Shown here: piece by piece, positions 19,129 to 23,890 of the stretch
Position numbering within the stretch: position 1 is the stretch's first letter
Layout of the letters: each line of letters opens with the position of its first letter
From: the human T2T-CHM13v2.0 reference genome, Homo sapiens
Direction: 5' to 3' (one strand)
DNA: 64,000 bases
NCBI RefSeq assembly: GCF_009914755.1
Contig: NC_060943.1
Program-made: the position numbers and the translations under genes
The notes under the pieces: model-generated
Database searches by the model: none
Told to the model about the DNA's origin: nothing
The model's input: only the letters and a program-made list of their open reading frames with translations

Positions 19129-20932
19129 TTTTTTAATTTTATATTTTAATATTATTATACTACAAGTTTTAGGGTACATGTGCACAATGTGCAGGTTAGT
19201 TACATATGTATACATGTGCCATGCTGGTGTGCTGCACCCATTAGCTCGTCATTTACCATTAGGTATATCTCCTAATGCTATCCCTTCCCCCTCCCCCCAC
19301 CCCACAACAGTCCACAGAGTGTGATGTTCCCCTTCCTGTGTTCATGTGTTCTCATTGTTCAATTCCCACCTATGAGTGAGAATATGCAGTGTTTGGTTTT
19401 TTGTTCTTGCGATAGTTTACTAAGAATGATGATTTCCAGTTTCATCCATGTCCCTACAAAGGACATGAACTCATCATTATTGATGGCTGCATAGTATTCC
19501 ATGGTGTATATGTGCCACATTTTCTTAATCCAGTGTATCATTGTTGGACATTTGGGTTGGTTCCAAGTCTTTGCTATTGTGAATACTGCCACAATAAACA
19601 TACTTGTGCATGTGTCTTTATAGCAGCATGATTTATAGTCCTTTGGGTATCTACCCAGTAATGGGATGGCTGGGTCAAATGGTATTTCTAGTTCTAGATC
19701 CCTGAGGAATCGCCACACTGACTTCCACAATGGTTGAACTAGTTGACAGTCCCACCAACAGTGTAAAAGTGTTCCTATTTCTCCACATCTTCTCCAGCAC
19801 CTGTTGTTTCCTGACTTTTTAATGATCGCCATTCTAACTGGTGTGAAATGGTATCTCATTGTGGTTTTGATTTGCATTTCTCTGATGGCCAGTGATGATG
19901 AGCATTTTTTCATGTGTTTTTTGGCTGCATAAATGTCTTCTTTTGAGAAGTGTCTGTTCATGTCCTTTGCCCACTTTTTGATGGGGTTGTTTTTTTCTTG
20001 TAAATTTGTTTGAGTTCATTGTAGATTCTGGATATTAGCCCTTTGTCAGATGAGTAGGTTGCGAAAATTTTCTCCCATTTTGTAGGTTGCCTGTTGACTC
20101 TGATGGTAGTTTCTTTTGCTGTGCAGAAGCTCTTTAGTTTAATTAGATCCCATTTCTCAATTTTGGCTTTTGTTCCCATTGCTTTTGGTGTTTTAGACAT
20201 GAAGTCCTTGCCCATGCCTATGTCCGGAATGGTAATGCCTAGGTTTTCTTCTAGGGTTTTTATGGTTTTAGGTCTAACGTTTAAGTCTTTAATCCATCTT
20301 GAATTGATTTTTGTACAAGGTGTAAGGAAGGGATCCAGTTTCAGCTTTCTACATACGGCTAGCCAGTTTTCCCAGCACCATTTATTAAATAGGGAATCCT
20401 TGCCCCATTGCTTGTTTTTCTCAGGTTTGTCAAAGATCAGATAGTTGTAGATATGTGGTGTTCTTTCTGAGGGCTCTGTTCTGTTCCATTGATCTATATC
20501 TCTGTTTTCGTACCAGTACCATGCTGTTTTGGTTACTGTAGCCTTGTAGTATAGTTTGAAGTCAGGTAGCATGATGCCTCCAGCTTTGTTCTTTTGGCTT
20601 AGGAGTGACTTGGTGATGCGGGCTCTTTTTTGGTTCCATATGAACTTTAAAGTAGTTTTTTCCAATTCTCTGAAGAAAATCATTGGTAGCTTGATGGGGA
20701 TGGCATTGAATCTATAAATTACCTTGGGCAGTATGGCCATTTTCATGATATTGATTCTTCCTACCCATGAGCATGGAATGTTCTTCCATTTGTTTGTATC
20801 CTCTTTTATTTCATTGAGCAGTGGTTTGTAGTTCTCCTTGAAGAGGTCCTCCACATCCCTTGTAAGTTGGATTCCTAGGTATTTTATTCTCTTTGAAGCA
20901 ATTATGAATGGGAGTTCACTCATGATTTGGCT
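19129..20932 (-). mobile_element. Host L1 (L1PA3-like), 3' portion: ORF2 C-terminus, 3'UTR and A-rich tail
   Basis: ORF2p fragments at 19958-20923 and 19359-19961 (-); L1 3'UTR; T-rich tail at 19129-19158. Confidence 0.92.
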
Positions 20933-23890
20933 GGTTTTTTGAAAGGATCAACAAAATTGATAGACCACTAGCAAGACTAATAAAGAAAAAAACATAGAAG
21001 AATCAAATAGATGCAATAAAAAATGATAAAGGGAATATCACCACTGATCCCACAGAAATTACAAAGTACCATCAGAGAATACTACAAACACCTCTATGCA
21101 AATAAACTAGAAAATCTAGATGAAATGGACAAATTCCTTGACACATACACTCTCCCAAGAGTAAACCAGGAAGAAGCTGAATCTCTGAAGAGACCAATAA
21201 AAGGAGCTGAAATTGTGGCAATAATCAAGAGCTTACCAATGAAAAAGAGTCCTGGATCAGATGGATTCACAGCCAAATTCTACCAGAGGTGCAAGGAGGA
21301 ACTGATACCATTCCTTCTGAAACTATTCCAATCAATAGAAAAAGAGGGAATCCTCCCTAACTCATTTTATGAGGCCAGCATCATCCTGTTACCAAAGCCG
21401 GGCAGAGACACAACCAAAAAAGAGAATTTTAGACCAATATCCTTGATGAACATCGATGCAAAAATCCTCAATAAAATACTGGCAAACTGAATCCAGCAGC
21501 ACATCAAAAAGCTTATCCACCATGATCAAGTGGGCTTCATCCCTGGGATGCAGGGCTGGTTCAATATATGCCAATTAATCAATAAATGTAATCCAGCATA
21601 TAAACAGAACCAAAGACAAAAACCACATGATTATATAATAGATGCAGAAAAGGCCTTTGACAAAATTCAATGACACTTCATGCTAAAAACTCTCAATAAA
21701 TTAGGTATTGATGTGACGTATCTCAAAATAATAAGAGCTATCTATGCCAAACCCACAGCCAATATCATACTGAATGGGCAAAAACTGGAAGCATTCCCTT
21801 TGAAAACTGGCACAAGACAGGGATGCCCTCTCTCAACACTCCTATTCAACATAGTGTTGGATGTTCTGGCCAGGGCAATTAGGCAGGAGAAGGAAATAAA
21901 GGGTATTCAATTAGGAAAAGAGGAAGTCAAATTGTCCCTGTTTGCAGATGACATGATTGTATACCTAGAAAACCCCATTGTCTCAACCCAAAATCTCCTT
22001 AAGCTGATAAGCAACTTCAGCAATGTCTCAGGATACAAAATCAATGTACAACAATCACAAGCATTCTTATACACCAATAACAGAGAGCCAAATCATGAGT
22101 GAACTCCCATTCATAATTGCTTCGAAGAGAATAAAATACCTAGGAATCCAACTTACAAGGGATGTGGAGGACCTCTTCAAGGAGAACTACAAACCACTGC
22201 TCAATGAAATAAAAGAGGATACAAACAAATGGAAGAACATTCCATGCTCATGGGTAGGAAGAATCAATATCATGAAAATGGCCATACTGCCCAAGGTAAT
22301 TTATAGATTCAATGCCATCCCCATCAAGCTACCAATGATTTTCTTCAGAGAATTGGAAAAAACTACTTTAAAGTTCACATGGAACCAAAAAAGAGCCCGC
22401 ATCGCCAAGTCACTCCTAAGCCAAAAGAACAAAGCTGGAGGCATCATGCTACCTGACTTCAAACTATACTACAAGGCTACAGTAACCAAAACAGCATGGT
22501 ACTGGTACGAAAACAGAGATATAGATCAATGGAACAGAACAGAGCCCTCAGAAAGAACACCACATATCTACAACTATCTGATCTTTGACAAACCTGAGAA
22601 AAACAAGCAATGGGGCAAGGATTCCCTATTTAATAAATGGTGCTGGGAAAACTGGCTAGCCGTATGTAGAAAGCTGAAACTGGATCCCTTCCTTACACCT
22701 TGTACAAAAATCAATTCAAGATGGATTAAAGACTTAAACGTTAGACCTAAAACCATAAAAACCCTAGAAGAAAACCTAGGCATTACCATTCCGGACATAG
22801 GCATGGGCAAGGACTTCATGTCTAAAACACCAAAAGCAATGGGAACAAAAGCCAAAATTGAGAAATGGGATCTAATTAAACTAAAGAGCTTCTGCACAGC
22901 GAAAGAAACTACCATCAGAGTCAACAGGCAACCTACAAAATGGGAGAAAATTTTCGCAACCTACTCATCTGACAAAGGGCTAATATCCAGAATCTACAAT
23001 GAACTCAAACAAATTTACAAGAAAAAAACAACCCCATCAAAAAGTGGGCAAAGGACATGAACAGACACTTCTCAAAAGAAGACATTTATGCAGCCAAAAA
23101 ACACATGAAAAAATGCTCACCATCACTGGCCATCAGAGAAATGCAAATCAAAACCACAGTGAGTTACCATTTCACACCAGTTAGAATGGCAATCATTAAA
23201 AAGTCAGGAAACAACAGGTGCTGGAGAGGATGTGGAGAAATAGGAACACTTTTACACTGTTGGTGGGACTGTCAACTAGTTCAACCATTGTGGAAGTCAG
23301 TGTGGCGATTCCTCAGGGATCTAGAACTAGAAATACCATTTGACCCACCCAACCCATTACTGGGTAGATACCCAAAGGACTATAAATCATGCTGCTATAA
23401 AGACACATGCACAAGTATGTTTATTGTGGCAGTTTTCACAATAGCAAAGACTTGGAACCAACCCAAATGTCCAACAATGATAGACTGGATTAAGAAAATG
23501 TGGCACATATACACCATGGAATACTATGCAGCCATCAATAATGATGAGTTCATGTCCTTTGTAGGGACATGGATGAAATTGGAAATCATCATTCTCAGTA
23601 AACTATCGCAAGAACAAAAAACCAAACACCGCATATTCCCACTCATGGGGGGAATTGAACAATGAGAACACATGGACACAGGAAGGGGAAAATCACACTC
23701 TGGGGATTGATGTGGGATGGGGGGATGGGGGAGGGATAGCATTGGGAGATATACCTAGTGCTAGATGACGAGTTAATGGGTGCAGCACACCAGCATGGCA
23801 CATGTATACATATGTAACTAACCTGCACATTGTGCACATGTACCGTAAAACTTAAAGTATAATAATAATAAAAAAAGAAAAATAAATAAA
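20930..23890 (+). mobile_element. Nested, oppositely oriented L1 (L1PA3-like), 3' ~2.96 kb with its own A-tail
   Basis: ORF2p fragments including RT motif LFADD (21680-22102) and C-terminus; 3'UTR and tail at 23860-23890. Confidence 0.92.

What the first reader, a model, noticed from the sequence alone, without database searches (positions are those of the whole stretch)
19155..23864. Identity gradient between the arms suggests arm-to-arm gene conversion or recurrent inversion
Seen: the inner ~1.0 kb of the arms differ at about 4 positions by eye (2 of 321 aa). They share changes absent from canonical ORF2p and, where comparable, from the third L1: DVEDL, PMIFF, SLLSQ, WYENR, SERTP, LAVCR, TPCTK, TIPDI, AMGTK. 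The outer ~0.75 kb differ at roughly 20 or more positions. A single duplication event would give uniform divergence. Inference: the arms are homogenised near the spacer, as in Y-chromosome palindromes, and the 1.15 kb spacer may be a polymorphic inversion.
Basis: partly seen in the sequence, partly recalled or inferred. Interest (0 to 1): 0.7.

Follow-up and report, generated by a model that had tools for sequence, protein, structure and literature searches.

The report
Neighbouring L1 copies swapping sequence
Two separately inserted, dead LINE-1 copies lying back to back in an intron of ZNF254 share many otherwise rare mutations near their centre, and both share others with a third copy 32 kb away, likely through repeated non-allelic gene conversion; the middle piece may have flipped in the past but is not a catalogued inversion.

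Summary
The gradient is real and stepwise. The arms differ at 4 of 1,034, 9 of 459 and 19 of 275 sites from the spacer outwards. They share 14, 6 and 0 rare alleles in those zones; 861 unrelated L1 pairs share at most 3, 2 and 2.

The arms are not a duplication. One belongs to a full-length minus-strand L1 (A; 14-bp TSD, chr18 3' transduction). The other belongs to a 5'-truncated plus-strand L1 (B) of a different 3'UTR lineage nested inside A, which lacks about 2.2 kb. Ectopic exchange between them is the best explanation.

Two allele pairs occur nowhere else in the genome, so exchange is three-way.

A past inner-arm swap is possible but unproven. No inversion is listed here in the two T2T call sets searched (44 and 65 samples). 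Both list an anatomically similar chr1 L1 pair that the rare-allele search surfaced blind. This is a new, well-resolved member of a known kind. Ape and pangenome tests could not be run.

The parts
19039..19052 (+). Left copy of the 14-bp target-site duplication of L1 'A'; its T run merges with A's short final tail
   Evidence: The 14-mer occurs only at 19039 and 26033 in the window
19054..19127 (-). About 75-bp 3' transduction of A, with an AATAAA near its end; source sequence at chr18:28,451,563-28,451,639
   Evidence: 96% over 77 bp, best non-self hit for that part; no L1 match within 1.5 kb of the chr18 site
19128..20932 (-). Left arm: 3' part of L1 A (about 4,397 to end on third-L1 coordinates)
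19160..19439 (-). Outer zone of left arm: not homogenised, A-A 3'UTR type
   Evidence: 0 shared rare alleles; lineage sites 19273 and 19253 differ from B
19440..19898 (-). Middle zone of left arm: 9 differences, 6 shared rare alleles
19899..20932 (-). Inner zone of left arm: 4 differences, 14 shared rare alleles
20930..20932 (.). Inverted junction between A's 3' part and B's 5' end, 3-bp microhomology
20933..22085 (+). Spacer (L1 about 3,218-4,396). 20933-21674 has a B-lineage haplotype and no alleles shared with C; 21675-22085 has 4 rare alleles shared with C
22086..23893 (+). Right arm: 3' part of 5'-truncated L1 B with its own A-rich tail (about 23860-23890), no transduction, G-G-A-A 3'UTR type
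23887..26032 (-). 5' part of L1 A (5'UTR, ORF1, start of ORF2). B's tail abuts it at a site that reads TT/AAAA in the third L1
26033..26046 (+). Right copy of A's target-site duplication
55701..61886 (-). Third, full-length L1 'C' with its own 14-bp TSD (55694 and 61896); shares 11 rare alleles with B and 11 with A's 5' part

Best explanation
The 1.8-kb inverted arms are the 3' ends of two independently inserted, now broken L1 elements whose inner 1.45 kb were likely made alike by repeated non-allelic recombination (mainly gene conversion), with a third L1 32 kb away likely taking part at a lower rate. Shown: A is a full-length minus-strand insertion with a TSD and a chr18 transduction; B is a 5'-truncated plus-strand copy of another 3'UTR lineage sitting inside A, which lacks about 2.2 kb; rare alleles are shared near the spacer and not in the outer 275 bp; C shares locus-specific alleles with both. 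Inferred: B entered A by target-primed reverse transcription at an endonuclease-type site, with target deletion then or later; nearby arms pair most often where they are closest and already most alike, so identity is self-reinforcing towards the centre; the inner zone was last homogenised at about 8% and the middle zone at about 39% of the spacer's age (roughly 1-1.5 and 5-7 million years on a recalled 13-18 My subfamily age, if all differences are new mutations). Conversion versus paired crossovers cannot be told apart in one genome. I put at least one past inversion at about 0.4 and a segregating inversion today at about 0.2. No function is implied.
For: Shared rare alleles 14/6/0 by zone against maxima of 3/2/2 among 861 panel pairs. 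Outer-zone divergence (6.9%) is like that of unrelated copies (mean 5.6%). Two lineage sites in complete linkage among 29 panel copies separate A from B, and B's 3'UTR motif has 72 genomic copies including B. The spacer's T-A-G haplotype occurs only in G-G type copies. One TSD brackets all of A, and the transduction is on A only. C shares 11 rare alleles with B in 21675-23540 (34 panel copies: at most 1) and 11 with A's 5' part (12 controls: 0-2). Two two-allele words occur only at B+C and at A+C in 3.1 Gb, against 6,987 copies of the common word. A chr1:60.65 Mb pair of the same anatomy has patchy homogenisation (44 shared rare alleles, some probably lineage marks) and is a listed inversion.
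Against: Only one haplotype was seen; no ape orthologue, reads or second assembly. The inner/middle step is post hoc and modest (109 of 3,000). The direction of conversion is unresolved. C's shared alleles sit in identical runs (2-123 bp) barely longer than background, so one old long event or direct descent fits as well as many short tracts. A 12-copy panel for the 5' part is small. The 28 main panel copies were chosen for likeness to arm A. Of three neighbour pairs found, only chr1 showed strong sharing (chr8: 6, chr3: 1). Weak-to-strong bias among shared alleles (10:4 against 10:10 in the spacer) is too thin to use.
Confidence: 0.8

Rival explanations
1. Inversion swap. A and C became alike early, then a crossover between the arms at about d 1,079-1,106 flipped about 3.3 kb (spacer plus inner arms), so A-derived sequence now lies next to the spacer on B's side; later conversion smoothed the inner arms. 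In one version B was twin-primed using A's antisense strand as second primer, making the mirror orientation ancestral. This refines rather than replaces the best explanation.
For: Where the arms differ and C has a non-majority allele, C matches the B-side arm at d 293 and 1,074 and the A-side arm at d 1,106, 1,646, 1,659 and 1,679: one switch. The arm-proximal 410 bp of the spacer carry 4 C-shared alleles though A lacks that segment today. Density of C-shared alleles is similar in A's 5' part (11 in 2.1 kb) and in 21675-23540 (11 in 1.9 kb). None in 20933-21674 (Poisson P 0.017).
Against: Only two B-side sites. Short direct B-C conversions explain them equally well (56-bp and 27-bp identical runs). 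B differs from C at three lineage sites inside the supposed A-derived block (22078, d 78, d 627). The A-side matches are lineage or CpG sites. Not in the call sets searched.
Confidence: 0.35
2. One replication-based event (foldback or template switch) duplicated A's own 3' 1.45-1.8 kb into inverted orientation; later mutation gave the differences.
For: Explains shared alleles in one step; 3-bp microhomology at the inverted junction. L1-linked inverted duplications and foldbacks are described (10.1101/2024.12.14.628481, passages).
Against: The outer 275 bp carry different lineage alleles, different tails and no shared rare alleles. The spacer's first 740 bp are B-lineage. Inner and middle zones differ in divergence. 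C's sharing is unexplained.
Confidence: 0.08
3. Assembly or polishing collapse made the inner arms look alike.
For: Near-identical inverted repeats can mislead polishing (general knowledge). Reads were not available.
Against: The whole structure is 4.8 kb, shorter than the long reads behind T2T-CHM13 (recalled). The arms keep 13 differences interleaved with 20 shared rare alleles, and alleles are shared with C 32 kb away at 93-95% identity.
Confidence: 0.03
4. A, B and C come from one rare source element, so shared alleles reflect descent, not exchange.
For: C-shared alleles are spread evenly with short identical runs. A could have been the source of C by local reinsertion.
Against: The two-allele words exist only at this locus. 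A, B and C differ at linked lineage sites. C has its own TSD and no transduction. Descent cannot give 0.39% in the inner zone beside 6.9% in the outer.
Confidence: 0.1

Closest known systems
Non-allelic gene conversion between neighbouring Alus (Aleshin and Zhi 2010, not read; as described in PMC8230782 and PMC6598467, passages)
   Same: Independently inserted retrotransposon copies share non-diagnostic mutations, more so when close.
   Different: Here L1s, a within-arm gradient, and a partner 32-36 kb away, beyond the roughly 10-kb range reported for Alus.
L1-flanked balanced inversions (Porubsky preprint 10.1101/2021.12.20.472354, passages: 22 of 132 NAHR-type inversions, median flank identity 97.2%, median size 5.6 kb; HsInv0341 with L1PA3 repeats, PMC3961182, passages; L1-mediated human-chimpanzee inversions, PMC2603318, passages and supplement rows)
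   Same: Inverted L1 pair at over 90% identity around a short spacer. chr1-60654091-INV-5007 has nearly the same anatomy.
   Different: No inverted haplotype is listed at this locus; the spacer (1.15 kb) is small and is itself L1.
High-identity island inside older inverted repeats (HsInv0209: 782 bp at 99.9% within 94% repeats; PMC3961182, passage)
   Same: Local homogenisation within diverged inverted repeats.
   Different: Those are 7-kb segmental duplications with genes and a validated inversion.
X/Y palindromes (PMC8327919, passages)
   Same: Arm-to-arm homogenisation, loss of sequence near the centre, potential spacer flips.
   Different: Arms of 8-140 kb at over 99%, mostly gene-bearing and kept by selection. 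Here 1.8-kb autosomal transposon arms from two insertions, 98% overall.
Twin-primed 5'-inverted L1 (passages) and L1 insertion-mediated deletion (recalled)
   Same: Inverted junction with microhomology; missing target sequence.
   Different: Two poly(A) tails and a full 5' end inside one TSD: not a single twin-primed insertion in the CHM13 orientation.

Membership tests
Non-allelic conversion between neighbouring transposon copies | Copies inserted independently | tested here: met
   Different 3'UTR lineages and tails; A and C each have their own TSD
Non-allelic conversion between neighbouring transposon copies | Non-diagnostic mutations shared above background and bounded in tracts | tested here: met
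   14/6/0 against maxima 3/2/2 of 861 pairs; locus-unique words
Non-allelic conversion between neighbouring transposon copies | Non-reciprocal transfer, with donor and acceptor known | tested here: inconclusive
   Lineage sites in the inner zone fit either donor; two sites fit a reciprocal swap
Non-allelic conversion between neighbouring transposon copies | Paralogues cluster by species across apes | not testable with these tools
   The genome has no relatives here
L1-flanked balanced inversion polymorphism | Inverted L1 pair at over 90% identity around a spacer | tested here: met
L1-flanked balanced inversion polymorphism | Both orientations seen in people | tested here: inconclusive
   No entry in Porubsky 2023 Table S1 (44 samples) or in the stored Logsdon 2025 tables holding the T2T inversion sheet (65 samples); both list the chr1 control. 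A 1.15-kb spacer could be missed; haplotypes were not examined.
X/Y-type palindrome | Arms of 8 kb or more at over 99% identity | tested here: not met
   1.77 kb, 32 substitutions (98.2%) (range)
X/Y-type palindrome | Arms paralogous by duplication, usually gene-bearing | tested here: not met
   Two L1 insertions with interrupted frames
Twin-primed L1 insertion | One tail; inverted piece ends near the start of the sense piece; TSD next to the inverted piece | tested here: not met
   Two tails; the TSD lies beyond A's intact 5' end. It could hold for B in the mirror orientation, untested.
L1 3' transduction | Unique sequence from elsewhere between the L1 tail and the TSD | tested here: met
   77 bp at 96% to chr18:28.45 Mb
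L1 3' transduction | Source L1 upstream of the donor sequence | tested here: not met
   No L1 within 1.5 kb in CHM13; a source that was never fixed, or was lost, is inferred
L1 insertion-mediated deletion | Endonuclease site at the 3' junction, no TSD, target loss at the time of insertion | tested here: inconclusive
   TT/AAAA-type site and 3-bp microhomology seen; timing of the 2.2-kb loss needs outgroups

The most novel reading that the evidence does not exclude
The CHM13 arrangement is the flipped product of a past crossover at d 1,079-1,106, readable from one genome, and A, B and C form a three-way recombining L1 network across ZNF254's zinc-finger exon. The same pairing resolved as a crossover would invert (B-C, about 35 kb) or delete or duplicate (A-C, about 36 kb) that exon. 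More widely, sharing of rare alleles between neighbouring L1s in a single assembly would map inversion-prone L1 pairs, as the blind recovery of the chr1:60.65 Mb inversion hints.
Probability: 0.3. Interest if true: 0.62.

Novelty: new member of a known kind. Interest (0 to 1): 0.42.

Why it matters
It is a base-resolved case in which dead L1 copies of different origin converge in sequence, which distorts insertion dating and keeps a recombination substrate alive. The third partner shows ectopic pairing across 32-36 kb that brackets the coding exon of a KRAB zinc-finger gene, so rare inversions, deletions or duplications of ZNF254's finger array are a testable prediction. The rare-allele test is cheap and could be run genome-wide to measure L1-L1 conversion against distance and orientation. 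My searches found this described for Alus but not for L1s (open-access library only). The process itself is known, and no effect on the gene is shown.

Tried and rejected
Single duplication or foldback: rejected by different 3'UTR lineages and tails. Intrinsic 3'UTR variability as sole cause: it raises the outer zone but cannot give 0.39% or shared rare alleles. Plain twin priming: two tails and an intact 5' end. Dispersed rare lineage for the C-shared alleles: both words are locus-unique. Using the chr18 source element to polarise conversion: the site holds no L1. GC-biased conversion: counts too small.

Catalogue searches without a hit: Porubsky 2023 file 2; Logsdon 2025 file 2, cut when stored but holding the inversion sheets; Lee 2008, 3 chr19 rows, none here; Schloissnig 2025, whose spreadsheet index lists no inversion table and whose main supplement was too large to read; the 2026 imputation paper, no 'chr19' string, so uninformative. 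GRCh38 positions used as search terms were recalled approximations. The Cell 2022 inversion tables were not seen. 'ZNF254' with 'inversion' gave 4 unrelated listings. Searches for L1-L1 conversion gave no papers. chr3 and chr8 neighbour pairs showed little sharing. chr5 locus L002, whose junction resembles ours, is an 80%-identical L1 with an internal inversion and no arms in the 3.5 kb held. Eight partial copies were dropped from the spacer panel. Of 72 motif hits, 60 were probed and 13 fetched, of which 8 were G-G-A-A.
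Full report
Observation. A self-comparison of the window finds inverted arms at 19128-20932 (minus) and 22086-23893 (plus) around a 1,153-bp spacer. Aligned base by base, they differ at 4 of 1,034 sites nearest the spacer, 9 of the next 459 and 19 of the last 275, plus one 1-bp indel: 0.39%, 1.96% and 6.9%. A change-point test against nulls weighted by L1 site mutability gave 0 of 3,000 for the whole arm and 109 of 3,000 for the inner/middle step, so the outer boundary is firm and the inner one modest.

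Anatomy. On the coordinates of a third, full-length L1 in the window (C, 55701-61886), the region reads: minus 4,397-end at 20932-19128, plus 3,215-end at 20930-23893, minus 15-2,162 at 26030-23887. A 14-bp direct repeat occurs only at 19039 and 26033 and brackets everything, so the two minus pieces are one full-length insertion, A. Between A's tail and the left repeat lie about 75 bp that match chr18:28,451,563-28,451,639 at 96%, with no L1 within 1.5 kb of that site: a 3' transduction whose source is absent from this genome. The plus piece, B, has its own tail, no transduction, a 3-bp microhomology at its 5' junction, and abuts A at a position that reads TT/AAAA in C. A lacks about 2,234 bp there. 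All three elements have interrupted frames. The L1PA3/L1PA4-age label is recalled; no repeat library was available.

A and B are separate insertions. In 29 other copies (28 best hits to arm A plus C), two 3'UTR sites are in complete linkage and split the panel 13 to 16; A has one state and B the other. B's four-site type has 72 exact motif matches in the genome, B included. I probed 60 of them, fetched 13 long ones, and 8 were of B's type. The spacer's T-A-G haplotype at 21151/21205/21206 occurs only in copies with B's G-G 3'UTR state. The outer zone's 6.9% matches unrelated copies (mean 5.6%).

Homogenisation. Alleles seen in at most 1 panel copy are shared by the arms at 14, 6 and 0 sites in the three zones; 861 panel pairs average 0.13, 0.04 and 0.04, with maxima 3, 2 and 2. 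The last shared allele is at d 1,454. Independent insertions cannot share 20 such alleles, and a single duplication cannot leave different lineage states outside. If every remaining difference is a later mutation, the inner zone was last homogenised at about 8% and the middle at about 39% of the spacer's age, roughly 1-1.5 and 5-7 My on a recalled subfamily age. Some differences may instead be unconverted islands or exchanges with C, so these dates are rough.

The third L1. C shares 11 rare alleles with B in 21675-23540 (34 panel copies: at most 1), none in 20933-21674 or the outer zone, and 11 with A's 5' part (12 controls: 0-2). A 39-mer with two such alleles occurs only in B and C, and a 27-mer only in A and C, in 3.1 Gb, against 6,987 copies of the common 39-mer and 29 of the one-allele form. 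C has its own TSD. The sharing is therefore local. Identical runs around the shared sites are short (12-123 bp for B-C, 2-63 bp for A-C), so one old long event and many short tracts both fit.

Inversion. Where the arms differ and C has a non-majority allele, C matches B's side at d 293 and 1,074 and A's side from d 1,106 outwards. The arm-proximal 410 bp of the spacer also carry 4 C-shared alleles that today's A has no counterpart for. This is what a past crossover at d 1,079-1,106 would leave. Direct B-C conversion explains it as well, and B differs from C at three lineage sites inside that block. For a present-day polymorphism the evidence is negative: nothing at chr19:24.26 Mb in Porubsky 2023 Table S1 (44 samples; PMC10150506 supplement rows) or in the stored Logsdon 2025 tables (65 samples; PMC12350169 supplement rows and passages), nor among Lee 2008's three chr19 rows. 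Small inversions between near-identical flanks are hard to call (PMC12350158 passages), and the Cell 2022 and Schloissnig 2025 inversion lists were not seen.

An unplanned control. The 29 one-allele hits hold three neighbouring pairs. The chr1:60.65 Mb pair is a full-length minus L1 beside a truncated plus L1, with 4.3-kb arms at 95.3%, 150-bp windows ranging from 0 to 14 differences, and 44 shared rare alleles, some probably lineage marks. It is listed as an inversion in both call sets (2,294 bp; chr1-60654091-INV-5007 with 60 reference, 4 heterozygous and 1 homozygous sample). The chr8 and chr3 pairs shared only 6 and 1 alleles. This anatomy can therefore flip, but the chr19 case is not shown to.

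Comparison. It works like neighbour conversion among Alus (PMC8230782 and PMC6598467, passages; the primary 2010 paper was not read) and like arm-to-arm exchange in X palindromes (PMC8327919, passages). It has the substrate of L1-flanked inversions (10.1101/2021.12.20.472354, passages; PMC3961182, passages; PMC2603318, passages). It fails the size and origin criteria for an X/Y palindrome and the geometry of a single twin-primed insertion. Searches for this locus and for L1-L1 conversion found nothing in the open-access library; that does not cover subscription journals.

Verdict. A real, well-resolved case of ectopic homogenisation between independently inserted L1s, with a third partner across ZNF254's finger exon. 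New member of a known kind. Confidence in the mechanism 0.8, a past inversion about 0.4, a current polymorphism about 0.2, interest 0.42.

Noticed in passing
L134-L135 (chr1:60,651,100-60,661,900): Full-length minus L1 abutting a truncated plus L1; 4.3-kb inverted arms with patchy homogenisation. Listed as a polymorphic inversion in two call sets.
   Followed up: yes
L042:1501-1577 (chr18:28,451,563-28,451,639): Donor sequence of A's 3' transduction with no L1 within 1.5 kb; the source element is apparently absent from CHM13.
   Followed up: partly
window 20930-23893 and 55701-61886; 19128-26032 and 55701-61886: B and C are inverted, A and C direct, around ZNF254's last exon (34443-38157) and LINC03085, so crossovers would invert or delete/duplicate them.
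   Followed up: partly
L136-L137 (chr8:64.71-64.74 Mb) and L138-L139 (chr3:148.58-148.69 Mb): Neighbouring L1 pairs sharing the same rare allele; 6 and 1 shared rare alleles in total, so weak or chance.
   Followed up: partly
window 22124, 22378, 22404, 22901: At all four inner-zone differences B has G or C and A has A or T on the L1 sense strand; too few to interpret.
   Followed up: no
window 20933-22085: The spacer is 4.0% from the panel majority while the 29 panel copies are 1.1-3.2%; panel selection may account for part of it.
   Followed up: no
L002 (chr5:20,193,216-20,196,720): An older L1 (about 80% to C) with an inverted junction at almost the same L1 coordinates (about 4,370 and 3,225) as the one at window 20930; looks twin-primed.
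   Followed up: partly
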